The notes under the pieces are model-generated. The model was not told where the DNA came from and did not search any database. It worked only from the letters and a program-made list of their open reading frames with translations. A DNA stretch of 32,239 nt from a virus. Lineage: Duplodnaviria; Heunggongvirae; Uroviricota; Caudoviricetes. The stretch's first letter is position 1; every line of letters begins with the position of its first letter. Below are positions 5,413-32,239 of the stretch, piece by piece. Location: the IMG/VR virus record IMGVR_UViG_2645727843_000011; one strand, given 5' to 3'. Made by a program: the position numbers and the translations under genes.

Positions 5413-6603
5413 TTAATTGCTGTTAACCGAGGTGACCAGATTTGCCAGGTATTTATCGGTAATACGCTGGCGCAGGGTCAGGTTTTCGAGAGGAGGCACC
5501 GGGGTATAGTCGTAGTCGATATACAGTTTTCCGGCCTTGAGGGTTTCCGCATCGTTGGATTCTTCGCTGAACCAGCAGGTCGCATCCACGATATAGCCGT
5601 TTGTTTTCAGCTCTCGGAATTTGGCATTGATGCCGTCAACGATGTCGCGAATCAGCGTTGCGGTGATGGGCTTGTCCACCGCCCACATGTGCGCCTCAGC
5701 CATCGTGTCGGCCAGCACCTGCGCGGTGCGGGTGTAGTTTTCAAAGAGGAACAGCGGGTCATCAGAGCAGGTACGGTTACCCCAGAAGCGGAAACCGTCA
5801 CGGCGAATCAGCGTTGTGACGCCTGACTCGTTAAGCAGGTCAGCATCGGTGCCGGACTCCTGCAAATCCCAGAATACGGACGCGCTGATGCCGGTAACAC
5901 CGTTTACCCCGACGTTGGACAGCGTTTTATGCCAGCCCTGCTCCTGGTCGATTTTAGCGCGCAGACCCAGCGCACGGGCGGTGGCATACGCGGTGGCGGT
6001 GGTACTGGTGACCGTATCCCATGCGAGGAAATCCGGCCAGATGACCATCAGCTCACGCTGGCTGAAATTCTGGCGGTAGGCTTTCACCTCGGAAATGGTC
6101 TTACAGCCCCATGCGCTGATATATCCGAAAGCGCGCAGCTTCTGACAGACGGATGCCAGTGCAACAGCCACCTCTTTGGTATCCAGTCCCGGCACACCGA
6201 GAATACGCGGTTTAACACCGGTTACCGACTCCGCCGCCAGCAGGGCTTTTAGTCCGGTGTACTGACCGTTTTCGTCGGTAGTGCCGATGATATTGGAAAC
6301 GGTCTGCGCGAGTTTCGTTTCCTCGTCATCACCGGTGCCGTCTTCCACGCGCACGACAACGGTGACCGGTTTTGACTGGTCAGCGATGGCCTGCAACGAT
6401 GCCGCCAGCGTGCCTTTTTTACCGGCCTTTGCAATTGCGCTTTGCACATTGGTAATCAGCACCGGTTTATTGAGGGGGAAGGTTTCCGCATCCGCATCGC
6501 TGGCCGTGCAGACCATGCCGACAATGGCAGTGGATACGGTGGAAATGACGCGGGTGCCGTCGTTAATCTCCAGCACCTGCACGCCATGATGATAGTCACT
6601 CAT
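5413..6603 (-). CDS. FI: Contractile tail sheath protein gpFI, 396 aa
   Basis: 396-aa ORF beginning MSDYHHGVQVLEINDGTRVISTVSTA..., ATG at 6601..6603; length and position match P2 FI. Confidence 0.9.
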   Translation of the reverse strand: MSDYHHGVQVLEINDGTRVISTVSTAIVGMVCTASDADAETFPLNKPVLITNVQSAIAKAGKKGTLAASLQAIADQSKPVTVVVRVEDGTGDDEETKLAQTVSNIIGTTDENGQYTGLKALLAAESVTGVKPRILGVPGLDTKEVAVALASVCQKLRAFGYISAWGCKTISEVKAYRQNFSQRELMVIWPDFLAWDTVTSTTATAYATARALGLRAKIDQEQGWHKTLSNVGVNGVTGISASVFWDLQESGTDADLLNESGVTTLIRRDGFRFWGNRTCSDDPLFLFENYTRTAQVLADTMAEAHMWAVDKPITATLIRDIVDGINAKFRELKTNGYIVDATCWFSEESNDAETLKAGKLYIDYDYTPVPPLENLTLRQRITDKYLANLVTSVNSN

Positions 6604-6694
6604 CCGTTTAACTCCGTGGTTAATGGGTGCAACTATTTTCTGTTGTGCAGAGCATAAGACGCTATTTGACCTGGCTGGTCAGTGGATGAAACAA
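6604..6694 (-). promoter_or_regulatory. Putative late promoter region for the FI operon (PF-equivalent)
   Basis: Non-coding interval between the intrinsic terminator at 6695..6726 and the FI start; P2 has an Ogr-dependent late promoter upstream of FI (established knowledge); exact -10 and Ogr dyad not resolved by eye. Confidence 0.35.
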
Positions 6695-6726
6695 CAGATA
6701 AAGAAAAGGCGGGCAATTCGCCCGCC
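6695..6726 (-). terminator. Rho-independent terminator on the - strand upstream of FI
   Basis: On the - strand: GGCGGGC-GAATT-GCCCGCC followed by TTTTCTTTATCTG; perfect 7-bp GC stem and U-rich tail. Confidence 0.6.
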
Positions 6727-6786
6727 TGTCCTGATTTGTACTCACTCATTTTCCGCCTGACAATTTACATAGCCCAAATGCTATCA

Positions 6787-6802
6787 AATCTGACAGTCTG
6801 CT
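6787..6802 (+). repeat. Copy A of 16-bp site aatctgacagtctgct (putative recombinase site or cassette boundary)
   Basis: Exact 16-mer shared with the reverse complement of 9220..9235; 11-bp core ctgacagtctg shared with 9099..9109. Confidence 0.6.
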
Positions 6803-6933
6803 TTGAGCGAAAAGTGGACATTAGAGTTACAAAAGCAAGTTTAAATCATCCAAAATATTACAATGTCCTTATCTATCTGATATCGTTATGATAAAAAGCT
6901 CCTGAATATAATCGATAGTAGGTGGTTATTTCC

Positions 6934-7311
6934 ATGAAATCAATTTTAGAGGTTTTTACTCAAGGAAATACTAAAGAAAAACTGGCTGTTATCGCCGATC
7001 TCACAACCATTGCGGGAATATCGATTGCAACTATTATTGCTGGTTTGTTAACCCTAGTTGCAAAAACAGATAAACTAGATGTTGGAAATCTGTTTGGAGT
7101 TGTCATAATATCTCTGCTCGGATTGGCTGGTGTTTGCTGTTTTGTGGCCTTATTTATTTGGGTTATAACCCAAATGTCTAAACCATGGGGAACACCTCGG
7201 GGGGTTCAGCCCTTAGTTAAGTGTGCTATTTCCCTTATCTTTATCTGTATGTTTTTGCTGGCTGTCTTTACATTTTATGAGTTTATTTCTTCGATGAGCA
7301 TACGCTATTGA
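6934..7311 (+). CDS. Small hydrophobic membrane protein (about 125 aa, 3-4 predicted TM segments), cargo gene
   Basis: ORF 6922..7311 in the track begins with GTG; the first ATG at 6934 follows a GGTGG RBS with 8-nt spacing; translation is dominated by hydrophobic stretches (IAGISIATIIAGLLTLVA, GVVIISLLGLAGVCCFVALFIWVI, ISLIFICMFLLAVFTF); AT-rich. Confidence 0.6.
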   Translation: MKSILEVFTQGNTKEKLAVIADLTTIAGISIATIIAGLLTLVAKTDKLDVGNLFGVVIISLLGLAGVCCFVALFIWVITQMSKPWGTPRGVQPLVKCAISLIFICMFLLAVFTFYEFISSMSIRY

Positions 7312-7333
7312 ATATAAAATCAGCCCCCATAAC

Positions 7334-7918
7334 TTAAAAGAGACCTTCTATATCGACTTCAATGCCCAAATAACGGACTGTGCTTTCCAGTTTCTTATGG
7401 CCCAACAGAAGTTGGATCACCCAGAGACTCTTGGTTTTCTTGTAGATTAAGTAAGGTTTTGTTCTTCTCATGGAATGTGTGCTGTACAGCGAATCTTCGA
7501 GACCAAGCTTTTCTACCCACCCATGAAAAATTCGGTTGTATTGCCGGGTTGATATATGGTGGTTAGTTCCGACCCGAGAGCGGAACAGGAAGCCTTTACT
7601 ATGCCAGTTGCCGAGCTTTATCAATGCAGTAACCGCTTCCCTTGTCCCTTTGGTTATCTCAAATTGGACAGGGCTGCCGGTTTTCTGTTGCAACACCGTT
7701 GCTCTGCTTGAGACAGAACTGCCATATGCAGCATCTGATACTTTGAGTTTGACCAAATCACAGCCCCGTAGCTTAGTGTCCAAAGCCATGTTGAACAGAG
7801 CTAGATCGCGTGTTTTACCTTCCAACTCAAGTCTAATCCGGATCCCCCAGATATGAGATATCTGAAGTGGCCTTTTTTGACCGATGGTACGGTCTTTATT
7901 CCACGGTGACGTTTTCAT
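7334..7918 (-). CDS. Short tyrosine site-specific recombinase, FimB/FimE-like (about 194 aa from the ATG at 7918; the track ORF extends to 8020 from a TTG)
   Basis: Translation carries the tyrosine recombinase catalytic signature: Arg box (LDTKLRGCDLVKLKVSD), KTG lysine, HSMRRT (HxxR) and LLGH...TVRYL with the catalytic Tyr; size is that of FimB/FimE-type invertases rather than a 330-400 aa phage integrase; AGGAG RBS 9 nt before the ATG at 7916..7918. Confidence 0.7.
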   Translation of the reverse strand: MKTSPWNKDRTIGQKRPLQISHIWGIRIRLELEGKTRDLALFNMALDTKLRGCDLVKLKVSDAAYGSSVSSRATVLQQKTGSPVQFEITKGTREAVTALIKLGNWHSKGFLFRSRVGTNHHISTRQYNRIFHGWVEKLGLEDSLYSTHSMRRTKPYLIYKKTKSLWVIQLLLGHKKLESTVRYLGIEVDIEGLF

Positions 7919-7920
7919 AT

Positions 7921-7949
7921 TCAAATCTCCTGCAATGTGGGAGATTTGA
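7921..7949 (-). promoter_or_regulatory. RNA hairpin sequestering the recombinase Shine-Dalgarno
   Basis: 10-bp perfect inverted repeat tcaaatctcc (7921..7930) and ggagatttga (7940..7949) with a 9-nt loop; on the - strand mRNA the SD GGAG lies in the 3' arm, 2 nt before the ATG. Confidence 0.45.
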
Positions 7950-8024
7950 GTATGGTTGTCTCTCAAGAGCGAAAATAAGTCAACTATCACTAGTTGTTGC
8001 GCATGTACGTATTCTGTCAATTAA

Positions 8025-8867
8025 TTATTGACAATCATCAATTCTGGAATGATCAAAATCATCATATCGAATTATAGTCTGGTTGACTGTATCTATTGTT
8101 GGTGTCATTTCTGTTATAATATCCTGATAACCTAAAGAGTTAAATACATTTACTAAGGCCTCACACCGAAGGGCCGTAGCAATTACAAAATTATAAATTG
8201 CCAGCCGTTTATTTTCTTGTTTAACTGCAAGAATGAATTCGATAGAAGTATTTTCATCACTTTGGATTGCATTATATAGAGATACTATATTTACCATATC
8301 ATCAGAGAATGTATGTATTGAATCACAAAGGGGAACGTAATGGGCATGATAGTGTGTTTCCCAGCCAATTAATTCAAAAAGTTTTCTGGTTCCTGGATAT
8401 TCAGGTGTATTTGGCCACAATCTATTAAATAGATCAGTTAGTTCTTTTCCCATGCGAATCCTTTCATTTGCTGCTGGATTAGTCATTCCTTTGGATTTTA
8501 AACACTCCAGCCACCGTTTTCCATTACTATGAACTAATTTCTTACTAGCCTTGAGTAATGCTTGTGCATTTTCGCCATCATCTATTGCTATATAAAATTG
8601 ATTGGCAGCCTGTTCTATTATAACCCTAGCTAATACTTCCGATGCTGAAAAGGCTCCTATATTCAAAGAAGAGATAGCCTGATTACTAAGTTCATTCAGT
8701 ACATTAAAGTACTGTAAGACCATCAATTTTTGTTCCACACCCTTTAGGTTGTCTATTTTATTTTTATGCTCCTCAAATTTTGCATGGATATATTTATTTA
8801 TCGCGGCTATTTTTTTTACATCTTCGTCAAGATCAAACGGGCAACGTCCAAACAATTCTTTTTTCAT
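8025..8867 (-). CDS. Hypothetical protein, 280 aa, AT-rich cargo gene upstream of the recombinase
   Basis: 280-aa ORF, ATG at 8865..8867 with an AGGAG RBS; no family recognised by eye; same strand as the recombinase gene, which follows 106 bp downstream. Confidence 0.6.
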   Translation of the reverse strand: MKKELFGRCPFDLDEDVKKIAAINKYIHAKFEEHKNKIDNLKGVEQKLMVLQYFNVLNELSNQAISSLNIGAFSASEVLARVIIEQAANQFYIAIDDGENAQALLKASKKLVHSNGKRWLECLKSKGMTNPAANERIRMGKELTDLFNRLWPNTPEYPGTRKLFELIGWETHYHAHYVPLCDSIHTFSDDMVNIVSLYNAIQSDENTSIEFILAVKQENKRLAIYNFVIATALRCEALVNVFNSLGYQDIITEMTPTIDTVNQTIIRYDDFDHSRIDDCQ

Positions 8868-16736: not shown

Positions 16737-17149
16737 GGTTCCCGCCCCTCAAAACGCTGACGACAGGCCGTGCGTATCAGCCGGAAGAACACCGACGCCA
16801 CGAGGTAAATCAGCGCGGTAAAAATCCACCCGGCAGCGACCAGCGAGATAAACGTCGCCACCATCACCACCAGAGCCGCCGCCCGTCTGCGCCACGGCAC
16901 CGGCTGCAAAAACAGCGACGCGACAATCTTCACGGCCAGCGATTCCGGCGGCAGCTCCCGCCCGTAGCGTTCCAGCACATACTCAGTGGCATACACGCCG
17001 ACACCACCGGCAACCACACAGATAACCGTCGCCAGAATCGCCCAGGCGGCGACAAAATTGACGGCCACGCTCTGCGGGTAAATCAGGGACAGTGCCAGCA
17101 TCAGCGCCAGCGACACGTTCAGCATCAGTGAAAGGGATAATTTCTTCAT
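16724..17149 (-). CDS. lysA: LysA lysis-timing membrane protein, 141 aa
   Basis: 141-aa multi-TM ORF between K and lysB, ATG at 17147..17149. Confidence 0.85.
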   Translation of the reverse strand: MKKLSLSLMLNVSLALMLALSLIYPQSVAVNFVAAWAILATVICVVAGGVGVYATEYVLERYGRELPPESLAVKIVASLFLQPVPWRRRAAALVVMVATFISLVAAGWIFTALIYLVASVFFRLIRTACRQRFEGREPCQS

Positions 17150-17163
17150 GGTGTTTACTCCGT

Positions 17164-17661
17164 TTAAGCCGGTACGCCGCCAGCGGTACGCCAGACGGTG
17201 ACCAGTTTTTCCAGTGAATGCTCACGCTGACCGTAACCGGCACCCGGCAGGGACGCCCAGATATTGCGACAGCGTGAAATGGCGCGCTCAATGCGTCCCG
17301 CCCGGATGTCATCCAGTGCACCGCGTTCGCGGATCAACTGAATGGCGAGTCTGTCCTGTGACAACGGGCTGAAATCAGGCAGGGCAAGCTGTTTACGGTA
17401 GTGCGGCCAGAACAGGTAAAGCTGCTGATAGCGACCGGAGGCCGTGGATTTTTCACCGCGACGGTTAAACACCTTCGCCGGTCGGCCATGTGCGAACGGG
17501 TGGTCACTGTAGTCGGTGAAAATTTCCGGCTTTCCGTCCAGTCCGGTGACTATCACGTCATAGCCCCGGTTTTTTGTCAGCGGATGATTCGCCGTCCCTT
17601 CGGACACGGCCAGCATGTCGAGAAAGGCGGCGATATTCTGATGCGTGTTAATTACCGGCAT
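17164..17661 (-). CDS. K: Endolysin gpK, 165 aa
   Basis: 165-aa ORF beginning MPVINTHQNIAAFLDMLAVSEGTANHP..., lysozyme-like, position Y-K-lysA. Confidence 0.88.
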   Translation of the reverse strand: MPVINTHQNIAAFLDMLAVSEGTANHPLTKNRGYDVIVTGLDGKPEIFTDYSDHPFAHGRPAKVFNRRGEKSTASGRYQQLYLFWPHYRKQLALPDFSPLSQDRLAIQLIRERGALDDIRAGRIERAISRCRNIWASLPGAGYGQREHSLEKLVTVWRTAGGVPA

Positions 17662-21491: not shown

Positions 21492-21664
21492 TGTCAGGAG
21501 TCCTGAATAGTGATTAGAGGAGTCACATGTCGGCATCAGTTTCCCGACGATGCGCATCCTCCGCCATCAGTCCCGGATGGCTTATCACTGACACAACAGC
21601 ACCTTAGCGAATCGCGGGGCGCGACTCAGTAGCCTTGCCGTGTATTCATCACGGCGAGGTATTC
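21492..21664. promoter_or_regulatory. Divergent late promoter region between O (- strand) and P (+ strand)
   Basis: 173-bp non-coding gap between divergently transcribed late operons; in P2 both are Ogr-activated (established knowledge); motifs not resolved by eye. Confidence 0.4.
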
Positions 21665-23437
21665 ATGACCATCACCACAGACACCACTCTTTTGCACGAC
21701 CCGCGTCGTCAGGCGGCGCTGCTGTACTGGCAGGGGTTTTCCGTGCCGCAGATTGCCGCCATGTTGCAGATGAAACGCCCGACGGTGCAGAGCTGGAAAC
21801 AGCGCGACGGCTGGGACAGCGTTGCCCCCATCAGCCGTGTCGAAATGAGTCTGGAAGCGCGGCTGACCCAGCTCATTATCAAACCGCAGAAAACCGGCGG
21901 TGACTTCAAGGAAATTGACCTGCTCGGACGCCAGATTGAACGACTGGCACGGGTAAACCGCTACAGCCAGACCGGCAACGAGGCAGACCTTAATCCGAAC
22001 GTCGCTAACCGCAACAAAGGCGGGCGTCGCAAACCGAAAAAGAATTTTTTCAGTGACGAGGCTATCGAAAAGCTGGAGCAGATTTTCTTTGAGCAGTCTT
22101 TCGACTATCAGTTGCACTGGTATCGCGCCGGGCTTGAGCACCGCATCCGCGATATCCTGAAATCCCGCCAGATTGGCGCGACGTTTTATTTTTCCCGCGA
22201 GGCGCTGCTGCGCGCCCTGAAAACAGGTCATAACCAGATTTTTCTGTCGGCCAGTAAAACGCAGGCGTATGTATTCCGTGAATACATCATCGCCTTTGCC
22301 CGTCTGGTTGACGTTGACCTGACCGGTGACCCGATTGTCCTTGGCAATAACGGCGCAAAACTGATTTTTCTCGGCACCAACTCCAACACCGCACAGAGCC
22401 ATAACGGCGACCTGTACGTCGACGAGATTTTCTGGATCCCGACTTTTCAGGTACTGCGTAAGGTGGCATCAGGTATGGCCTCACAGAGTCACCTGCGCTC
22501 GACCTATTTCTCCACCCCGTCCACGCTGGCGCACGACGCCTACCCGTTCTGGTCCGGTGAACTGTTCAACCGGGGACGCGCCAGCGCCGCTGAACGCGTG
22601 GAAATCGACGTCAGTCATAACGCCCTTGCCGGTGGGCTTCTCTGTGCGGACGGACAGTGGCGGCAGATTGTCACCATTGAGGACGCCCTGAAAGGTGGCT
22701 GCACACTGTTCGACATTGAGCAGCTCAAACGTGAAAACAGCGCCGACGATTTTAAAAACCTGTTCATGTGTGAATTTGTTGACGACAAGGCGTCGGTGTT
22801 CCCGTTCGAGGAACTGCAACGCTGCATGGTCGACACGCTGGAAGAATGGGAAGACTATGCCCCCTTTGCCGCAAATCCGTTCGGCTCCCGCCCGGTATGG
22901 ATTGGTTACGACCCGTCACACCGTGGCGACAGCGCCGGATGCGTGGTGCTGGCACCGCCGGTGGTGGCCGGTGGCAAATTCAGAATACTTGAGCGTCACC
23001 AGTGGAAAGGCATGGACTTTGCCACTCAGGCGGAATCCATCCGCAAACTCACCGAAAAATACAACGTCGAATACATCGGTATCGATGCCACCGGCCTCGG
23101 TGTCGGCGTGTTCCAGCTCGTGCGCTCGTTCTATCCCGCCGCGCGCGATATCCGCTACACGCCGGAAATGAAAACCGCAATGGTACTCAAGGCAAAAGAC
23201 GTTATCCGCCGTGGCTGTCTGGAATACGACGTCAGCGCCACCGACATCACCAGCTCGTTTATGGCTATCCGCAAGACCATGACCAGCAGCGGACGCAGCG
23301 CCACCTATGAGGCCAGCCGCAGCGAGGAAGCCAGCCACGCCGACCTCGCCTGGGCGACCATGCACGCTCTGTTAAATGAGCCACTCACCGCCGGTATCAG
23401 CACCCCGCTGACATCCACCATTCTGGAGTTTTACTGA
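21665..23437 (+). CDS. P: Terminase large (ATPase) subunit gpP, 590 aa
   Basis: Translation from ATG at 21665: MTITTDTTLLHDPRRQAALLYWQGFSVPQIAAML...; the track ORF begins 30 nt earlier at 21635. Confidence 0.9.
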   Translation: MTITTDTTLLHDPRRQAALLYWQGFSVPQIAAMLQMKRPTVQSWKQRDGWDSVAPISRVEMSLEARLTQLIIKPQKTGGDFKEIDLLGRQIERLARVNRYSQTGNEADLNPNVANRNKGGRRKPKKNFFSDEAIEKLEQIFFEQSFDYQLHWYRAGLEHRIRDILKSRQIGATFYFSREALLRALKTGHNQIFLSASKTQAYVFREYIIAFARLVDVDLTGDPIVLGNNGAKLIFLGTNSNTAQSHNGDLYVDEIFWIPTFQVLRKVASGMASQSHLRSTYFSTPSTLAHDAYPFWSGELFNRGRASAAERVEIDVSHNALAGGLLCADGQWRQIVTIEDALKGGCTLFDIEQLKRENSADDFKNLFMCEFVDDKASVFPFEELQRCMVDTLEEWEDYAPFAANPFGSRPVWIGYDPSHRGDSAGCVVLAPPVVAGGKFRILERHQWKGMDFATQAESIRKLTEKYNVEYIGIDATGLGVGVFQLVRSFYPAARDIRYTPEMKTAMVLKAKDVIRRGCLEYDVSATDITSSFMAIRKTMTSSGRSATYEASRSEEASHADLAWATMHALLNEPLTAGISTPLTSTILEFY

Positions 23438-24471
23438 TGAGCAAGAAAAAAGGGAAAACACCGCAACCTGCGGCAAAAAAAATGACCGCCAGCGCCCCGA
23501 AAATGGAGGCATTCACCTTTGGTGAGCCGGTGCCGGTACTCGACCGCCGTGACATTCTGGATTATGTCGAGTGCATCAGTAACGGCAGATGGTATGAGCC
23601 ACCGGTCAGCTTTACCGGTCTGGCAAAAAGCCTGCGTGCTGCCGTGCATCACAGCTCACCGATTTACGTCAAACGCAATATTCTGGCCTCGACATTTATC
23701 CCGCATCCGTGGCTTTCTCAGCAGGATTTCAGCCGCTTTGTGCTGGATTTTCTGGTGTTCGGTAATGCGTTTCTGGAAAAGCGTTACAGCACCACCGGTA
23801 AGGTCATCAGACTGGAAACCTCACCGGCAAAATATACCCGCCGTGGCGTGGAAGAGGATGTTTACTGGTGGGTGCCGTCCTTCCATGAGCCGACACCTTT
23901 CGCGCCCGGCTCCGTGTTTCACCTGCTGGAGCCGGATATTAATCAGGAGCTGTACGGTCTGCCGGAATATCTCAGCGCCCTTAACTCTGCCTGGCTGAAT
24001 GAATCAGCCACGCTGTTCCGCCGCAAGTATTACGAAAACGGCGCTCATGCCGGATATATCATGTACGTCACTGATGCCGTGCAGGATCGCAACGATATCG
24101 AAATGCTCCGCGAAAACATGGTGAAGTCGAAAGGCCGCAACAACTTTAAAAACCTGTTTCTCTATGCCCCGCAGGGGAAAGCTGACGGCATTAAAATTAT
24201 CCCGCTCAGTGAAGTGGCAACGAAGGACGATTTTTTTAATATCAAAAAAGCCAGCGCCGCTGACCTGCTGGACGCGCACCGCATCCCCTTTCAGTTGATG
24301 GGCGGCAAGCCGGAGAACGTCGGATCGCTGGGTGATATTGAGAAAGTGGCAAAGGTCTTTGTCCGCAATGAGCTTATCCCGTTACAGGACAGGATCCGGG
24401 AAATAAACGGCTGGCTCGGTCAGGAGGTCATCCGCTTTAAAAACTACTCACTGGACACTGACAACGGCTGA
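23437..24471 (+). CDS. Q: Portal protein gpQ, 344 aa
   Basis: 344-aa ORF overlapping the P stop (ATGA), last late gene before cos. Confidence 0.9.
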   Translation: MSKKKGKTPQPAAKKMTASAPKMEAFTFGEPVPVLDRRDILDYVECISNGRWYEPPVSFTGLAKSLRAAVHHSSPIYVKRNILASTFIPHPWLSQQDFSRFVLDFLVFGNAFLEKRYSTTGKVIRLETSPAKYTRRGVEEDVYWWVPSFHEPTPFAPGSVFHLLEPDINQELYGLPEYLSALNSAWLNESATLFRRKYYENGAHAGYIMYVTDAVQDRNDIEMLRENMVKSKGRNNFKNLFLYAPQGKADGIKIIPLSEVATKDDFFNIKKASAADLLDAHRIPFQLMGGKPENVGSLGDIEKVAKVFVRNELIPLQDRIREINGWLGQEVIRFKNYSLDTDNG

Positions 24472-24476
24472 ACATC

Positions 24477-24498
24477 GCCGCCTGCGGGCGGCTTTTTT
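24477..24498 (+). terminator. Rho-independent terminator downstream of Q
   Basis: gccgcc-tgcg-ggcggc stem-loop followed by tttttt, 6 bp after the Q stop codon. Confidence 0.7.
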
Positions 24499-24640
24499 AT
24501 ACCCCGTCATCACGCCCTCACACGCTCACCACCGCACAAAACACCCCGCAGACACACCAACGCCCCGGCGCACAATCTAAACGCCATCACGACGCGCTCA
24601 GACGCTGAAAAAATAAAATCAGCACCACCGCCAGCGCGCA

Positions 24641-24659
24641 GTGCTTTCCCCGCCTCGCC
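24641..24659. other. cos: cos site: 19-nt cohesive-end sequence
   Basis: gtgctttccccgcctcgcc is the exact reverse complement of the recalled P2 cohesive end GGCGAGGCGGGGAAAGCAC; located just beyond Q as expected. Confidence 0.8.
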
Positions 24660-24810
24660 CGCCCGCTTCATGGGGCGGTTTTAATGCAGGTGCAATACCG
24701 CTTTTGAGCCAAGCCCGTCCTGGCGGCGCACGGCCAGAACTGGCAACATCTATGCATGCAAAATCATGCACCCTATGCGGGCATTGCTAACATCCGTATT
24801 GTCCAGCGTG

Positions 24811-25746
24811 CTATTTGCTTAACAATTTATCATTTGGTGTAGCCTCAATAACCCTAATATCCAAGTCTAAATATGCAAAAATCGCACGCGCTTTGGCACA
24901 AAATTTTTGGTCTTTACTCAAAATAGCATCACAATAAATAGCCATAGCGGTGTGGTTCGCATCACTTAAAATGCCAGGCATTTTTTCAATACGGTTAAGC
25001 CCCTTGTCAGGGTGGAAACCCAGAAAATTAAGAACAGTATGGCAACCTACAACTCCCAAATATAAAGGCCACTCTTCATAACCCTGTTTATTCAGTGGGT
25101 CAAATCCATAGAATTGATCAATTGTTATTCCCTGATAATTATCACGCAACATATCCCATATCAGCTTCAAGGGATTATCCTTTATTGAAAGGTTACTTGC
25201 CCTACCGTTACCGGTGCCGATTGCCGCACGTGACGTTACCAGGCTTTGAGCATTCTGTAATTGCCCGTGAGTAACTAACTTAATGTCTTCAACTGCCTGT
25301 TCTATCTGAGATTCAATTTCGTCAGTGATGAGGTCATGTGGTGATAAGAGAGCATAAAGAAACTCTTTTAATTTATTATGTTGATGAAGAATTTCACTGT
25401 AATTATCTGCGCCAGCTAACCGTATCAAAAACTGCATTTGTGATTGTATGCATTCATCAACATGGATTTCATTGATGTTATCAAGCCACTGCTGATACAT
25501 ATCCTTTGGCTCACAATAATCATGAAGAAATGCACGCCCGGTAAGCCTAAATTGATTATCGAATTCGAGTTCCAACTTTCTTGCTTTAAGCTGTCTCAAC
25601 ACATCTAAAAATCGCATATCTCTAGCGCGTTTTATTTCATTGAAGTTTTCGTCAGAATAAACCCATATCGTGTCATCAGGCACTTCTAAGGTCATTCTAT
25701 TCTTGCTTAGGTCGTCCAAAATATTGTGGTCAAGATAAATCTTCAT
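24811..25746 (-). CDS. Hypothetical protein, 311 aa, AT-rich cargo gene at the tin/old-equivalent position
   Basis: 311-aa ORF, ATG at 25744..25746 with a GAGGTG RBS; no recognisable family by eye; lies between A and cos where P2 carries orf91, tin and old. Confidence 0.65.
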   Translation of the reverse strand: MKIYLDHNILDDLSKNRMTLEVPDDTIWVYSDENFNEIKRARDMRFLDVLRQLKARKLELEFDNQFRLTGRAFLHDYCEPKDMYQQWLDNINEIHVDECIQSQMQFLIRLAGADNYSEILHQHNKLKEFLYALLSPHDLITDEIESQIEQAVEDIKLVTHGQLQNAQSLVTSRAAIGTGNGRASNLSIKDNPLKLIWDMLRDNYQGITIDQFYGFDPLNKQGYEEWPLYLGVVGCHTVLNFLGFHPDKGLNRIEKMPGILSDANHTAMAIYCDAILSKDQKFCAKARAIFAYLDLDIRVIEATPNDKLLSK

Positions 25747-26105
25747 AACACCTCAACGTGACGTTGGGAAACATTACCAATACGCGAAATTTCTGATTCT
25801 AATGATATCTTACTTTTCCCATGTCATAGCTAACGCCTCGCGGGCTCGTTGTTCATCCCGACCAGCACTGAAAGAGAGTTTCAGCATCGACGGCGTTTTC
25901 TTTGGTCAGATAGATCACCTCCCTTCGAAGCAACCATACCCCTTCACCATGCACTTATTGTTTATAAAAACAGCCGTGATTTTCAGCTCTGTTGCTATCC
26001 GTTCCTCACTGTCTTTGCGGTCTTGCTCACCCGCCCAACAAAGAAGCAGTAAGAAAAGCCACAGCCCAGCAATCTACCCAACAATAACACAGATTTTTCT
26101 CACAA

Positions 26106-28391
26106 TTACCCCCATTCATATATACCAGTAAACCCCGGCCACTCATCAGCAACAGGATATGTGAATTTCTGCCCGTCGTATATCACAGACGCCCCGCGCG
26201 CCAGCGCCTCAAGCTCCCATCGCTGCGGCCTGATACCGTTCTGAGCAAGGTCAACGCGGATACGGGTAATTTGCATTCGTTCCGGCCGGGTCAGCCTGGC
26301 CGATGGTGCCATTTCATGCGGTTTTAACGGGCTTCCGTTTCTTTGCTGACGATTTGGTGTTCTCAGTCCGTGTTTTAATGCACCTCTGAGCGCCCTCACG
26401 ACCTCCGGGTCATTCCATTCGATAACACCGTCATCAACCAGATTAAGCACTGCTGCGGCGTGTTCAGAAGGTGTGGGAGCCGGTAACGAAGTATCACCAC
26501 CGGTGACCTTTCCACAGTTATTGACAGGACTCCGAGGCGCGGCGATGCCGCTTTTTAAAGTCAAAGGCTCAACGACCGGCACTTTCGGAACAATGCGCCA
26601 GTCCGTCGTTCTGGTGATATGAATATGACGCGCGCCGAGATGCGGCGCGTAAATGCCGACCACTCTCTCGACTTCTTCCTCGTACTCGTTAACTTCATCC
26701 GACGGACTACGGGCGACCCTGACAGTCTGACAATCGCGCGGGACATTTGCCCCACCCTGCGCGCTGATATACAGCGCAAAATCGCCACTGTCTGCGGCAG
26801 CGCGTGCAGCCTCGACGCGTTCGTCAAACTCATCAGCAATGCTGACGCCGCGAGGCAATTTGCGTAGTTCACGGTAAGCCCCCATTGTCGGCAGGCCAAC
26901 CGTTTTAAATTGCGGAATGCGCCACGTTGACGCCCATGCGGTAACAGCCGCGGCAGTGTCTTTCAGCGGCCTGCCGGTATCGTTATCGAGCTGACCATCC
27001 AGTGCATAGCCGTCGATGTTTTTTGAAATGTATTTCGCGATATATCCCGCAGCACCGCCCCGGTTAAGGTGTTTTGCCTGAAAACGGTTTCGCGCAGCTC
27101 CTCTTTCGTCGCCATCCTCTTTGAGCGCGTAGCGACGCATGATTTCAATAATCTGGTTACGCTGGCGTGGATGACAAAAAAGCATCATATGCCAGTGCGG
27201 CGTTCCGTCGTGGTGTGGCTCGACGACACGCAAACCGTAGACCTGTAAATCATTATCCTTGAATGCCGTGCGCATCAGGCTCCAGATGCGGCAGAGATAA
27301 CGCTGCGCATCCTTTGGATTAAATGCCTCATCATTCCAGCCGTGATTAAGCTGGACGGTTTTATTTTCGCCTTTTCCAACCTGACGTGTCGGGTGATACT
27401 TTGACGGCGCGGTAAGCGTGATAAACATCCCCACATCACCCTCTGCGGCGGCGTAATGCTCAATACCGGCGATGGTGTTCATCAGCTCCATCCGGCGAAT
27501 TTCAGGATTAGAAATACTGCCCATCACCTTACTGATAAGGTCGATGCGCTCGCCGGTTTCCCTGTTTTCAAGGTCACACGATTTAAGAAATTCCAGATTT
27601 GCCTGGCGGCGTGCACGTACATCACGAATGGCATGTTTACTGGCATAAGGAGAACGGTCTTTATTCACCTCCCCGACAGCAATCAGTAACGCCTCATGCC
27701 AGCGCATACGCTGGCCTTTAAGCTGATGAGTCCACCACTCATCGTTAAACAGACGGGCAATGGCAGAATATGCCTGCCTCGTGGTTATCTGTCCTTTACG
27801 GTATTTTTTCCAGTAGAGCGGGGAAATATTGAAAGCACGTGCAGCGCCAGCAACATGACCATACAGATGATCCTGCGCCTCATCCGTAAACAGCGATTCT
27901 TTTTCGCCATGCGCATCCACCCAGGCATCGCAGAGTTCCTCATACATCATGAAAAGCTGCGATGAGATACGGGCGGCAAACTTTTTCAGCTCCTTGTCAT
28001 TCATCCCCGGCAGACGCGCATAATGGTCACGCTCTGCCAGAAACAGCAACGACGCGTCGGTGTTCATTTCATGGCGCTGATTCACACGCTCAATGCGCGG
28101 CCATAAACGACGCTGAAAAGTGGATGTGAGAAAATAAAACCCGTGCACCGGGCTTTTATTGCGCCGGATGTAGTCATAGCGTGAAGTAAACAGCGAGCGC
28201 AAAAAGTAAGGCAGGCGGTTAATCGTGGATAAAACACCTTGCACCTGACGCATCTCGTCACGTGTAAGGGGTCTTTCGCGCCCGACAGCCTCGCGTGGCG
28301 CGTTCCATGCATAAGCACCGGTAAACGTCTTACCGGTGCCTGCGGCAAATGCTGACGGAGGGACAAAGCGCCCGGAGGCTTTAACGGCCAT
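26106..28391 (-). CDS. A: Replication initiation protein gpA (rolling-circle nickase), 761 aa
   Basis: Translation from ATG at 28389..28391: MAVKASGRFVPPSAFAAGTGKTFTGAYAWNAPREA...; the track ORF is extended to 28433. Confidence 0.9.
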   Translation of the reverse strand: MAVKASGRFVPPSAFAAGTGKTFTGAYAWNAPREAVGRERPLTRDEMRQVQGVLSTINRLPYFLRSLFTSRYDYIRRNKSPVHGFYFLTSTFQRRLWPRIERVNQRHEMNTDASLLFLAERDHYARLPGMNDKELKKFAARISSQLFMMYEELCDAWVDAHGEKESLFTDEAQDHLYGHVAGAARAFNISPLYWKKYRKGQITTRQAYSAIARLFNDEWWTHQLKGQRMRWHEALLIAVGEVNKDRSPYASKHAIRDVRARRQANLEFLKSCDLENRETGERIDLISKVMGSISNPEIRRMELMNTIAGIEHYAAAEGDVGMFITLTAPSKYHPTRQVGKGENKTVQLNHGWNDEAFNPKDAQRYLCRIWSLMRTAFKDNDLQVYGLRVVEPHHDGTPHWHMMLFCHPRQRNQIIEIMRRYALKEDGDERGAARNRFQAKHLNRGGAAGYIAKYISKNIDGYALDGQLDNDTGRPLKDTAAAVTAWASTWRIPQFKTVGLPTMGAYRELRKLPRGVSIADEFDERVEAARAAADSGDFALYISAQGGANVPRDCQTVRVARSPSDEVNEYEEEVERVVGIYAPHLGARHIHITRTTDWRIVPKVPVVEPLTLKSGIAAPRSPVNNCGKVTGGDTSLPAPTPSEHAAAVLNLVDDGVIEWNDPEVVRALRGALKHGLRTPNRQQRNGSPLKPHEMAPSARLTRPERMQITRIRVDLAQNGIRPQRWELEALARGASVIYDGQKFTYPVADEWPGFTGIYEWG

Positions 28392-28656
28392 ATGAGCCAA
28401 AAGCCTCTGAACAACGCTTGCTGAGTTGCTCAACCTGCGCGTTTAAATCGGCAAAAGATTTTGCGCTTCCGGTCAGAATATCGTGATGCATCAGGCCGGA
28501 AACGAGCTGGCTTAATTTCGGGTAATAACCAACCACCGCCAGCCATTCCTGACCGGCGTTTTTACCGCTTTCCGCTCTCTTTTTCTCGTGGAGAATAAAC
28601 TGAAAGCTGTCACTGGTAACGACATAACGTTCGCCAATTTCAATACGAATACTCAT
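28381..28656 (-). CDS. Hypothetical early protein, 91 aa
   Basis: ATG-initiated ORF overlapping the A start by 11 bp; part of the early operon between B and A. Confidence 0.6.
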   Translation of the reverse strand: MSIRIEIGERYVVTSDSFQFILHEKKRAESGKNAGQEWLAVVGYYPKLSQLVSGLMHHDILTGSAKSFADLNAQVEQLSKRCSEAFGSYGR

Positions 28657-30200: not shown

Positions 30201-30433
30201 TTCCATACCCTCCGGCTTTTCAGAAAGGTCAGAGCCTTTTTTAACGGACTCTGTTTTTTGGTGCGGATAATGATTCCCTTACGCCCCTTACCGTGGGTAA
30301 TGGTGAAGTCAATCGCCCTGGGGCTTTCGTTACGCAATAACTGAGCAATACAACGAGGCTCGTTCATCCTTTCCACCTTAAGCCGCACGGCTATGTCTTG
30401 ATTTGCTGTAACTAATGCGATTTTTCCAGTCAT
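30197..30433 (-). CDS. Hypothetical protein, 78 aa (P2 orf78-like), overlapping the 3' end of cox
   Basis: ATG at 30431..30433 gives 78 aa (MTGKIALVTANQDIAVRLKVERMNEPRCIAQ...); the track ORF is extended to 30457; position between cox and B. Confidence 0.5.
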   Translation of the reverse strand: MTGKIALVTANQDIAVRLKVERMNEPRCIAQLLRNESPRAIDFTITHGKGRKGIIIRTKKQSPLKKALTFLKSRRVWK

Positions 30434-30734
30434 GCCATTCTGTCGGAGCTTCATCAACTAGTTGGGCTGCGTACTTGTCCCACTCACAGCGATTAATCCA
30501 TAACTCAGCATGACCGCCCGGCTTTAATGGGTCCGTCATATAAAAGGCTGGTAACTTGCCTGCTTTCGCCATTTCAGCAACAGCACGAGGCGTCTTACCG
30601 ATGTAAAGAGCAAATCCCTCTTTCGAGAGCAAATCCGACGGTGCGGCTGCAAGTTTGATGTCACATTTTTTACTTTTTGTGAGATCAGATACTTTTTCTC
30701 CAACATCGTTATTCATTTCTGATCCAATACTCAT
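30378..30734 (-). CDS. cox: Cox-like excisionase / early repressor of Pc, about 118 aa
   Basis: Contains a Cox-like HTH region (FALYIGKTPRAVAEMAKAGKLPAFYMTDP) aligning with recalled P2 Cox (FAKLIGKSTGAVRRMIDKGKLPVIDMTDP); ATG at 30732..30734 with a GAGGA RBS; divergent from C. Confidence 0.7.
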   Translation of the reverse strand: MSIGSEMNNDVGEKVSDLTKSKKCDIKLAAAPSDLLSKEGFALYIGKTPRAVAEMAKAGKLPAFYMTDPLKPGGHAELWINRCEWDKYAAQLVDEAPTEWHDWKNRISYSKSRHSRAA

Positions 30735-30838
30735 TTTGATATCCTCAACTTTGGTGCCATTCAACCAGAGCTATTTGAAGCCGCTCTGCGTTGCTCTGGC
30801 GTGTCGCATGCAACATAAATTACGAGATACGACAATTC
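30735..30838. promoter_or_regulatory. Immunity switch region: divergent early (Pe) and repressor (Pc) promoters and operators
   Basis: 104-bp gap between divergent cox and C starts; contains the inverted repeat ccagag / ctctgg (30765..30770 and 30795..30800) and a direct repeat gctctg at 30783 and 30793. Confidence 0.5.
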
Positions 30839-31243: not shown

Positions 31244-32239
31244 ATGTCTATTAAAAAGCTCGATGATGGTCGTTATGAAGTGGACGTCAGACCGCAGGGT
31301 GCAGATGGAAAACGTATCAGGCGGAAATTTAAAACTAAAGGTGAAGCTCAAGCATTCGAACGTCATGTACTGGTTAACTACCACAACAAAGAGTGGCTGG
31401 AGAAGCCAGCCGACCGCCGAACTCTTACAGAGTTGTTAGGCAGATGGTGGATATATCACGGAAAATCACATGAGCGTGGAGATATTGAACGGGGGCGTTT
31501 GACGACAATAATCGCCAAATTTGCAGAAATGGGAGTGTCCAGAGCTGACCAGCTAACAAAGAAAACGATAACTGATTATCGCGTTGTAATGATGAACGAT
31601 GGTCTAAAACCAGCCAGCGTAAATCGGCATCTGGCAATAATGAGCGGGATGTTCACCAAGTTAATTGACGCCGGTGAATACCATTCTCACAACCCGTTCC
31701 GTGAGGTTAAGCGATTACGTGAAGCTGTTACAGAAATGGCTTTTTTGTCCAGTGAAGAGATTACACGGCTGTTATCCATGCTCGATGGTGATGAATTAAA
31801 TGCGACTCTGGTCTGCCTTTCTACTGGTGGACGTTGGAGTGAAGTGTCTAATTTAAAAGCTGAACACATCATTCACCAGATGGTTACGTTTATGAAAACT
31901 AAAAACGGAAAGCGCAGAACAATTCCCGTTTCGCAGGACCTGATTAAACGGATCAAGACCAAAAATTCAGGCAGGCTTTTTAATGCCAGTTACTACAAAG
32001 TGCGCAACGCTCTCAGGGAAGTAAAACCCGATTTACCTGACGGACAGGCAGTGCATGTTTTGAGGCATACATTTGCCACACATTTTATAATGAATGGAGG
32101 TAACATAATCACATTGCAGCGCATCCTGGGTCATTCTAACATTCAGCAAACTATGACCTACGCACACTTTGCACCGGATTTCTTACAAGATGCAGTGACT
32201 CTTAACCCGGTGTCAGGAATGTCCATAATGCGTCCATAA
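31244..32239 (+). CDS. int: Phage integrase (tyrosine recombinase), 331 aa
   Basis: 331-aa ORF with a GGAGGG RBS and ATG at 31244; C-terminal catalytic motifs HVLRHTFATHF and LGHSNIQQTMTYAH; terminal gene next to the (unseen) att site, as in P2. Confidence 0.88.
   Translation: MSIKKLDDGRYEVDVRPQGADGKRIRRKFKTKGEAQAFERHVLVNYHNKEWLEKPADRRTLTELLGRWWIYHGKSHERGDIERGRLTTIIAKFAEMGVSRADQLTKKTITDYRVVMMNDGLKPASVNRHLAIMSGMFTKLIDAGEYHSHNPFREVKRLREAVTEMAFLSSEEITRLLSMLDGDELNATLVCLSTGGRWSEVSNLKAEHIIHQMVTFMKTKNGKRRTIPVSQDLIKRIKTKNSGRLFNASYYKVRNALREVKPDLPDGQAVHVLRHTFATHFIMNGGNIITLQRILGHSNIQQTMTYAHFAPDFLQDAVTLNPVSGMSIMRP

What the first reader, a model, noticed from the sequence alone, without database searches (positions are those of the whole stretch)
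24700..26105. Unknown 311-aa protein occupying the tin/old hotspot next to cos
In P2 the interval between A and cos carries orf91, tin and old (phage-exclusion genes) and is a known variable slot. Here it is replaced by a single AT-rich gene (24811..25746, -) of unrecognised family with a strong RBS, plus about 360 bp of non-coding sequence upstream. This is a candidate single-gene anti-phage or abortive-infection determinant.
Basis: partly seen in the sequence, partly recalled or inferred. Interest (0 to 1): 0.62.

Follow-up and report, generated by a model that had tools for sequence, protein, structure and literature searches.

The report
Orphan split-PIN nuclease in P2 hotspot
The gene next to cos in this P2-like prophage is real and encodes a predicted PIN-type nuclease interrupted by a large helical domain; it sits where P2-like phages carry anti-phage genes, so it is a reasonable but untested single-gene defence candidate.

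Summary
A 311-aa gene (24811-25746, minus strand; GC 38% against 51-53% backbone) is the only cargo in the variable A-to-Q/cos slot (cargo 24772-26129) of a complete P2-like prophage. It is a working gene (dN/dS 0.13 against the Salmonella copy).

The gene moves alone. It occupies the same slot in E. coli, Salmonella and Serratia P2/186-like prophages, forms a single-gene integron cassette in Vibrio, and lies in islands with R-M, Gabija-like, OLD-like and TA genes.

The nearest precedent in kind is Cosus (Brc24), a validated single-gene PIN_12 integron-cassette defence. Membership in PIN_12 was tested and not met.

Defence remains inferred. Phage P2_SIDE7 encodes the identical protein, and its lysogen was not reported as protective in an eight-phage test. 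No convincing promoter was found. This is a good candidate, moderately interesting, and not a new principle.

The parts
24772..26129 (-). Variable cargo of the A-Q/cos hotspot: everything between the conserved P2 backbone flanks
   Evidence: blastn against P2-like prophages with other cargo (L011, L012): homology ends at 24771 and resumes at 26130-26131. Only 4 of 5,426 complete E. coli genomes carry this cargo, while 2,162 have the flanks.
24811..25746 (-). 311-aa protein-coding gene: predicted split-PIN nuclease
25522..25746 (-). N-terminal half of the PIN core (residues 1-75): strands b1-b3, invariant Y4, D6, N8 (near-invariant), S31, E37
   Evidence: Secondary structure of the model; invariant columns in the divergent alignment A2.
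24991..25521 (-). All-helical insert of ~175 residues (residues 76-252) splitting the PIN core; proposed regulatory/sensor domain
24814..24990 (-). C-terminal half of the PIN core (residues 253-311): invariant D262, H265, D279 in the motif D-x-x-H-x-A-x-A...S-x-D
   Evidence: Alignments A1 and A2. The only local hhalign match to authentic PF01850 PIN proteins places D262/S277-x-D279 on the PIN D...T-x-D motif (the score itself is not significant).
25749..25754 (-). Shine-Dalgarno GAGGTG
   Evidence: Read directly; identical in the Salmonella and Serratia copies.
25829..25908 (-). Conserved ~80-nt hotspot element with a ~15-bp hairpin, ending ...GGCGTTAG exactly where cargos diverge
   Evidence: Found in 191 of 5,426 E. 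coli genomes, 187 of which lack this gene. It lies downstream of A and next to unrelated cargo. Alignment A5 shows the sharp 3' edge. No Rfam match. Fold z-score -0.39.
25962..25988 (-). Terminator-like hairpin plus T-run downstream of gene A
   Evidence: Consensus scan: AGCTGAAAATCACGGCT followed by GTTTTTATAA.
24641..24659 (.). cos cohesive-end sequence (context)
   Evidence: GTGCTTTCCCCGCCTCGCC read; its identity with the P2 cos 19-mer is from memory.

Best explanation
The gene encodes a stand-alone, metal-dependent PIN-type nuclease. Its catalytic core (D6, E37, D262, D279, assisted by S31, N8 and H265) is split by a ~175-residue helical domain. It is carried as interchangeable cargo in the P2 A-Q/cos hotspot. 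The most likely role is a one-protein anti-phage (inter-viral competition) determinant. In this model the helical insert holds the nuclease inactive or sets its specificity. An infection cue then licenses cleavage of nucleic acid, most likely RNA as for VapC-type PIN enzymes, which blocks the invader's gene expression. Shown here: an intact gene under purifying selection, the PIN fold, a conserved acidic quartet, movement as a single gene, and residence in hotspots and conflict islands. Inferred: nuclease activity, an RNA target, regulation by the insert, expression in the lysogen, and any protective phenotype. Whether the outcome would be abortive or direct immunity cannot be said. [quoted passage not shown]
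Against: No phenotype is known. The P2_SIDE7 lysogen, which encodes the identical protein, was tested against eight phages and only AC1 was reported as protective. There is no PADLOC hit. No convincing or conserved sigma-70 promoter lies upstream. The gene is co-oriented with A, so expression could be lytic rather than lysogenic. Many neighbours outside prophages are housekeeping genes. The PIN assignment rests on fold and motifs; sequence-profile tests against PIN families were not significant. I could not check the 3-D clustering of the acidic residues because coordinates are not exposed.
Confidence: 0.5

Rival explanations
1. The nuclease serves the phage's own lytic cycle or counter-defence. 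It would be transcribed by read-through from the early operon (cox-B-A) during replication. It would degrade host or competitor RNA, process phage transcripts, or disarm a host or satellite system, rather than protect the lysogen.
For: It has the same orientation as A and lies 359 bp downstream. No convincing sigma-70 promoter was found in the conserved leader. The SIDE7 lysogen was not reported as protective. SIDE7 is a viable, spontaneously released phage, so the gene is compatible with lytic growth.
Against: A terminator-like hairpin separates it from A. The same gene works as a promoter-less integron cassette and in non-phage chromosomal islands, where a role in the P2 lytic cycle makes no sense. 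Known cargo of this slot is expressed from the prophage (PMC9122126).
Confidence: 0.2
2. It is a solitary PIN toxin or addiction-type module that stabilises the element carrying it (prophage, integron array, island). It would be neutralised by an unrecognised antitoxin, such as a small RNA or peptide in the leader, or by its own insert.
For: PIN is the classic VapC toxin fold. Sedentary integrons and the L013 island are rich in TA modules. The conserved structured leader might hide an RNA partner.
Against: No adjacent small gene is conserved in any context. The Vibrio cassette leaves only ~13 nt between attC and the start codon, so there is no room for an antitoxin. The leader element is shared with unrelated cargo, so it is not specific to this gene. 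There is no Rfam hit. The size and architecture are unlike the 130-150-aa VapC toxins.
Confidence: 0.12
3. It is a PIN-like protein with a cellular function unrelated to conflict (RNA processing or turnover, or RNA binding without catalysis), hitch-hiking as a moron.
For: Many PIN-like families have housekeeping roles (PMC5499597). Several chromosomal neighbours are metabolic genes. The family is broad, with 1,159 representatives.
Against: Distribution is patchy (4 of 5,426 E. coli genomes). The GC content is foreign. It resides in hotspots, integrons and islands. A full acidic quartet is retained.
Confidence: 0.1

Closest known systems
Cosus (Brc24), the PIN_12/PF16289 single-gene phage-resistance integron cassette (Kieffer et al., bioRxiv 10.1101/2024.07.02.601719)
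   Same: Both are single proteins with no partner. Both have an N-terminal PIN-like strand motif (ITID14N against YLD6HN) and a (S/T)-D-x-x-x-N-E motif after strand 2. Both have helical additions to the PIN core. Both occur as integron cassettes in marine Gammaproteobacteria and as isolated genes in Escherichia.
   Different: The window protein gives no hit to PF16289, whereas a 78-aa Brc24 fragment scores E=4e-10. hhalign against Brc24 relatives is null (E 0.44 and 0.47). From the primer names, Brc24's candidate PIN residues all lie within residue 177 of a protein I estimate at roughly 390 aa from the OCR-damaged cassette sequence. Here the core is split, with the third and fourth Asp at 262 and 279. 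No phenotype is known for this protein.
DUF4935 / PIN_12 clusters of the VapC-like group (Matelska et al. 2017, PMC5499597)
   Same: Both are uncharacterised, mono-cistronic bacterial proteins of about 300-380 aa with a PIN-like domain bearing helical inserts. UniRef labels the identical SIDE7 protein 'DUF4935 domain-containing protein'.
   Different: My Pfam scan does not reproduce the label, either for this protein or for 38 divergent relatives, and no homologue carries a precomputed Pfam domain. DUF4935 is described with its insert after strand 2 and a separate alpha/beta C-terminal region. Here the insert follows strand 3 and the C-terminus completes the PIN core.
VapC toxins of VapBC type II toxin-antitoxin systems
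   Different: There is no antitoxin gene. The protein is 311 aa rather than about 135 aa, because of the 175-aa insert. Sequence profiles do not match.
P2 Old and Tin (canonical cargo of the same slot)
   Same: Same genomic position next to cos, AT-rich accessory cargo, nuclease-based in the case of Old.
   Different: The folds are unrelated (Old is an ABC ATPase plus TOPRIM). This is one gene instead of orf91-tin-old. No exclusion phenotype is known.

Membership tests
PIN domain-like superfamily (VapC-like group) | Three-layer alpha/beta/alpha fold with a parallel beta-sheet, matching solved PIN domains | tested here: met
PIN domain-like superfamily (VapC-like group) | Three to four conserved acidic residues after strand 1, in the helix after strand 2, and after the later strands, plus a Ser/Thr | tested here: met
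   D6, E37, D262, D279 and S31 are invariant in 39 divergent sequences. Motif register matches authentic PIN proteins. Their spatial clustering could not be measured because no coordinates are available.
PIN domain-like superfamily (VapC-like group) | Significant sequence-profile match to a PIN-clan family | tested here: not met
   No Pfam PIN-clan hit at E<=10 for the protein or at E<=0.1 for 38 relatives. hhalign against four PF01850 proteins gave E=0.15.
PIN domain-like superfamily (VapC-like group) | Divalent-metal-dependent nuclease activity | not testable with these tools
   Requires biochemistry.
PIN_12 / DUF4935 (PF16289), including Cosus/Brc24 | Match to the PF16289 model above its gathering score | tested here: not met
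   No hit. Positive control: Brc24 N-terminal 78 aa at E=4e-10, and P0232 at E=1e-17.
PIN_12 / DUF4935 (PF16289), including Cosus/Brc24 | Profile-profile similarity to Brc24 relatives | tested here: not met
   hhalign of A2 and of A1 against A7: E=0.44 and 0.47. Caveat: A7 is shallow and covers only the N-terminal ~130 residues.
PIN_12 / DUF4935 (PF16289), including Cosus/Brc24 | Database label | tested here: inconclusive
   UniRef calls A0ABM8Y509_9CAUD 'DUF4935 domain-containing protein'. The basis of that label is unknown and I could not reproduce it.
PIN_12 / DUF4935 (PF16289), including Cosus/Brc24 | Anti-phage phenotype dependent on PIN residues | not testable with these tools
   Shown for Brc24 only.
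VapBC type II toxin-antitoxin | Adjacent, co-transcribed small antitoxin gene | tested here: not met
   No conserved neighbouring small ORF in the window, Serratia, Salmonella or Vibrio contexts.
P2 A-Q/cos defence-hotspot cargo | Lies between A and Q next to cos, and is replaced by other genes in otherwise syntenic prophages | tested here: met
P2 A-Q/cos defence-hotspot cargo | Belongs to a recognised defence family | tested here: not met
   PADLOC-DB v2: no match at E<=10.
P2 A-Q/cos defence-hotspot cargo | Protects the lysogen against other phages | not testable with these tools
   Literature only: the SIDE7 lysogen was tested and only AC1 was reported as protective.
Integron gene cassette | A single ORF bounded by attC recombination sites within an array | tested here: met
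   Met for the Vibrio parahaemolyticus homologue P0015 (attC copies at L006 4580-4703 and 5630-5756, within an array of 16-17). Not met for the window copy (only 39 bp lie downstream of the stop), nor for eight other genomic loci.

The most novel reading that the evidence does not exclude
This is the founding E. coli example of a large (over 1,000 clusters) and unmodelled family of one-protein immune nucleases. In this reading a PIN active site is assembled across a 175-residue helical sensor domain, the family is evolutionarily separate from Cosus/PIN_12, and it has a narrow or conditional phage range that the eight-phage lysogen test missed. The conserved ~80-nt element ending in GTTAG just upstream would be the junction at which P2-like phages swap such cargo.
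Probability: 0.3. Interest if true: 0.62.

Novelty: new variant of a known kind. Interest (0 to 1): 0.42.

Why it matters
If it is protective, it would add a compact (0.94 kb) single-protein nuclease system to the defence catalogue and assign a function to an orphan family of more than a thousand sequence clusters that no domain or defence database recognises. It would also give a tractable model for how a potentially toxic PIN nuclease is kept safe without an antitoxin, with the split core and helical insert as the obvious place to look. The gene links three cargo-exchange platforms: P2/186-like hotspots, Vibrio chromosomal integrons and genomic islands. If it is not protective, it is a caution that residence in the P2 hotspot is not enough to call a gene a defence gene.

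Tried and rejected
1. Foldseek against PDB gave no hit with E<=0.001. The afdb50 library was unavailable.
2. A PDB sequence-profile search returned only noise from helical proteins.
3. hhalign against four authentic PIN proteins from L013 was not significant (E=0.15). I used it only for motif register.
4. hhalign against Brc24 relatives was null. tblastn against the OCR-damaged brc24 cassette was null. My last homology search retrieved only Brc24-like fragments.
6. Rfam found nothing in 24400-26300. The ~80-nt element does not fold better than shuffled sequence (z = -0.39).
7. I tested whether the 359-bp spacer holds a remnant of the ~69-aa gene that precedes the element in other prophages. 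tblastn rejected this.
8. I tested whether non-Vibrio genomic copies are integron cassettes. No attC-like repeats were found in eight loci.
9. Promoter search: the consensus scan found none upstream. A relaxed scan gave only 8/12 matches that are not conserved in Salmonella.
10. I searched the Rousset 2022 supplements for the protein or genome accession. It was not found, but the files are truncated. No supplements are held for the NAR 2026 paper.
11. The search for related loci with the divergent alignment A2 failed for lack of a conserved stretch. I reran it with A1.
12. Pseudogene or chance ORF was rejected by dN/dS and the breadth of homologues.

Full report
**1. What is in the sequence**

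The window is a complete P2-like prophage. It encodes integrase (31244-32239), Cox (30378-30764), a DUF5405 protein, replication endonuclease A (26106-28433, minus strand), terminase P (21635-23437) and portal Q (23437-24471). RefSeq annotates a 99.4%-identical stretch of E. coli M8 the same way.

The finding's ORF is present exactly as described: 24811..25746 on the minus strand, 311 aa, ATG start. A GAGGTG Shine-Dalgarno lies two bases upstream. The P2 cos 19-mer (recalled from memory) reads at 24641-24659, about 150 bp beyond the stop codon.

The gene has 38% GC (GC3 36%), against 51% for the window and 53% for A and Q.

Comparison with P2-like prophages carrying other cargo places the edges of the variable segment at 24772 and 26129. 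Of 5,426 complete E. coli genomes, 2,162 match the flanks but only 4 carry this cargo.

**2. It is a real gene**

Against the 81%-identical Salmonella copy, dS is 0.85 and dN 0.11, so dN/dS is 0.13.

A word-indexed search found 33 clusters, all annotated as hypothetical and with no Pfam domain, in Escherichia, Salmonella, Serratia, Enterobacter, Citrobacter, Vibrio and Photobacterium. An exhaustive profile search found 1,159 representatives at 50% clustering, 254 of them below 1e-30. Nearly all are stand-alone proteins of 295-350 aa.

A species-representative genome scan adds Motilimonas, Ectothiorhodospira, Alteromonas, Pseudomonas, Shewanella, Sideroxydans, Burkholderiales, Geotalea, Smithella and Lentisphaeria.

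**3. What the protein is**

The protein matches nothing in Pfam, PADLOC, PHROGs or NCBIfam, and nothing in PDB by sequence profile. Thirty-eight divergent relatives also lack any consistent Pfam hit.

Foldseek's global search finds nothing. This fits the anatomy. Strands 1-3 and their helices occupy residues 1-75, a helical block occupies roughly 76-252, and the final helix-strand-helix-strand occupies 253-301.

In an alignment reaching down to 19% identity, the invariant residues are Y4, D6, S31, E37, D262, H265 and D279. N8, G112, L239, G243 and A288 are nearly invariant.

These residues fall where PIN enzymes place their metal ligands. 'YLD6HN' corresponds to the PIN 'LDTN' after strand 1. 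E37 lies in the helix after strand 2. 'D262-x-x-H-x-A-x-A ... S277-x-D279' corresponds to the PIN 'D-x-x-I-x-A-x-A ... T-x-D'. That last correspondence is the only local alignment hhalign produced against four authentic PF01850 proteins taken from locus L013. Its score is not significant (E=0.15), so I use it for register only.

Modelled alone, the insert (pLDDT 80) resembles only generic helical bundles.

I could not measure whether the four carboxylates cluster in space, because model coordinates are not exposed.

**4. How it travels**

The gene always moves alone.

- In Serratia it sits in a P2-like prophage with the same ~355-bp spacer after A.
- In Salmonella it sits in 186-like prophages after A, a DinI-like gene and an unknown 243-aa gene.
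- In IMG/VR, 13 of 14 loci are P2/186-like with the gene in the A-Q slot.
- In one of those loci (L053) it is stacked with a protein matching the PADLOC candidate PDC-S02 and a further 229-aa protein.
- In Vibrio parahaemolyticus the 56%-identical homologue is a single-gene cassette in a chromosomal integron. Sixteen to seventeen attC-type repeats punctuate the contig, two of them bracket the gene, and only about 13 nt separate the attC from the likely start codon.
- In Pseudomonas aeruginosa a 346-aa relative lies in an island with integrases, a resolvase, two OLD-like ATPase-TOPRIM genes and a HigBA-like pair.
- Metagenomic relatives sit in a TA-dense island and next to ArdC, a NERD-helicase/TOTE system and HipA.

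I scanned 145 neighbour ORFs from 21 non-prophage loci. Type I restriction enzymes, GajB-like helicases, a TOTE primase, transposases and integrases recur, but clearly metabolic genes are also present. The association with conflict and mobile DNA is therefore frequent but not universal. Eight of these loci show no attC arrays.

**5. The upstream 359 bp**

This stretch has three parts.

- Next to A there is a terminator-like hairpin with a T-run (25988-25962).
- Then comes an ~80-nt element (25908-25829 in the gene's sense). It is present in 191 E. coli genomes, 187 of which lack this gene. There it lies downstream of A, or of small genes after A, directly beside unrelated cargo such as reverse transcriptases and other hypotheticals. 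Copies agree up to '...GCGAGGCGTTAG' and diverge immediately afterwards, so its 3' edge is the cargo junction. It contains a ~15-bp hairpin whose G-U pairs are valid only in the A-sense strand. It has no Rfam match, and its folding energy is unremarkable. It is not a remnant of the small gene that precedes it elsewhere.
- The last ~80 bp are the cargo-specific leader, about 80% conserved among the E. coli, Salmonella and Serratia copies.

Neither the standard scan nor a relaxed one finds a convincing, conserved sigma-70 promoter. How and when the gene is transcribed remains open.

**6. Comparison with what is known**

The slot is the tin/old locus, which Rousset et al. (2022) showed to be a reservoir of anti-phage systems.

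That paper also matters directly. The phage record with a 100%-identical protein, OU784746, is their isolate P2_SIDE7. They lysogenised E. coli C with four new P2-like phages and tested the lysogens against eight phages. They report protection only for AC1. The negative for SIDE7 is implied and not displayed, and eight phages is a small panel. It is still the only experimental datum, and it does not favour a broad defence.

UniRef names the SIDE7 protein 'DUF4935 domain-containing protein'. Matelska et al. (2017) describe DUF4935 (PF16289, now PIN_12) as mono-cistronic bacterial proteins of about 350 aa, with a VapC-group PIN domain carrying helical inserts, and of unknown function.

[quoted passage not shown] The mutations T12A, D14A and D96A reduce that resistance.

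I therefore tested membership in PIN_12:

- PF16289 is in the library and detects a 78-residue Brc24 fragment at E=4e-10. It gives nothing for the window protein.
- Profile-profile comparison with Brc24 relatives is null, although that alignment is shallow.
- The architecture also differs. Judging from the mutagenesis primer names, Brc24's candidate PIN residues all lie within residue 177. Here the third and fourth Asp are at 262 and 279, after the insert.

Short motifs are shared: I-x-(I/L)-D-x-N and (S/T)-D-x-x-x-N-E. These are general PIN features. I conclude that the protein works like Cosus in kind, as a single-protein PIN nuclease on exchangeable cargo, but I do not file it as a member of that family.

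It is not a VapBC toxin either. It has no antitoxin gene, and it is more than twice the size of a VapC.

**7. Mechanism and rivals**

The best-supported reading (confidence about 0.5) is a stand-alone PIN nuclease used in inter-viral or host-virus conflict, with the helical insert gating or targeting the active site. The fold, the catalytic residues, the autonomy and the genomic habitats are shown. Nuclease activity, an RNA substrate, gating by the insert, lysogenic expression and protection are inferred.

The rivals are:

- a lytic-cycle or counter-defence nuclease expressed with the early operon (0.2). This is favoured by orientation, the lack of a promoter and the SIDE7 result, and disfavoured by the terminator-like hairpin and by the gene's life in integrons and islands;
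- a solitary toxin or addiction module (0.12). This is disfavoured because no partner exists and the Vibrio cassette has no room for one;
- a non-conflict RNA-processing protein (0.1).

A decayed or chance ORF is excluded.

**8. Verdict**

The novelty lies in the protein family. It is large, unmodelled, and has a PIN core split by a sensor-sized insert. The principle is not new, because both the hotspot and single-gene PIN defences are already described.

I score interest at 0.42. This is a well-defined, cheap-to-test candidate, tempered by an implied negative lysogen test.

Noticed in passing
window 25829-25908 (minus-strand sense): An ~80-nt conserved element with a ~15-bp hairpin, ending ...GGCGTTAG exactly where different P2 hotspot cargos diverge. 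It is present in 191 of 5,426 E. coli genomes next to unrelated cargo. It may be a cargo-exchange junction, a processing site or a regulatory element. Its GTTAG end resembles the R' core of the Vibrio attC sites in L006, which may be chance.
   Followed up: partly
window 6604-9287 (Z/fun-equivalent slot between tail sheath and tail-fibre genes): A second low-GC cargo region (33-46% GC) holds a 280-aa DUF5677 protein (8025-8867, -), a 228-aa small tyrosine-recombinase-like protein (7334-8020, -) and an unassigned 129-aa ORF (6922-7311, +). None has a PADLOC hit.
   Followed up: partly
window 14434-15219 (+): A very AT-rich (about 32% GC) 261-aa ORF is embedded among the lysis/tail genes, with no Pfam or PADLOC match. 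It is another moron-like insertion.
   Followed up: no
L053 7313-9105 (IMG/VR P2-like contig): Here the same 311-aa gene shares the A-Q slot with a 366-aa protein matching the PADLOC candidate PDC-S02 (E=2.5e-12) and a 229-aa protein with a weak DUF4131 hit. This is an example of stacked cargo.
   Followed up: partly
L019-L021 (Pseudomonas aeruginosa island), genes at 5887-7638 and 15995-17377: The P. aeruginosa relative lies in an integrase/resolvase-bounded island that also carries two OLD-like ATPase-TOPRIM proteins, a DUF4365 protein and a Gp49/HTH pair. This echoes the old gene that occupies the P2 slot.
   Followed up: no
L002-L005 7103-7834 (Salmonella 186-like prophages): An unknown 243-aa protein with no Pfam or PADLOC hit lies between the DinI-like gene and the 311-aa gene. 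It is absent from the E. coli and Serratia versions, so it is not an obligate partner.
   Followed up: partly
L006 4671-4715: The annotated 15-residue N-terminal extension of the Vibrio homologue P0015 overlaps the upstream attC site. The true start is probably the Met that aligns with M1 of the family.
   Followed up: no
window 25802-26131 (+): A 109-aa ORF lies antisense to the spacer and to the end of A. It is not annotated in RefSeq relatives and spans the conserved element, so it is probably spurious.
   Followed up: no
L013 5408-7927: In a metagenomic TA-dense island, an 839-aa Band_7/SPFH protein lies immediately upstream (74-bp gap, same strand) of the family member P0031.
   Followed up: no
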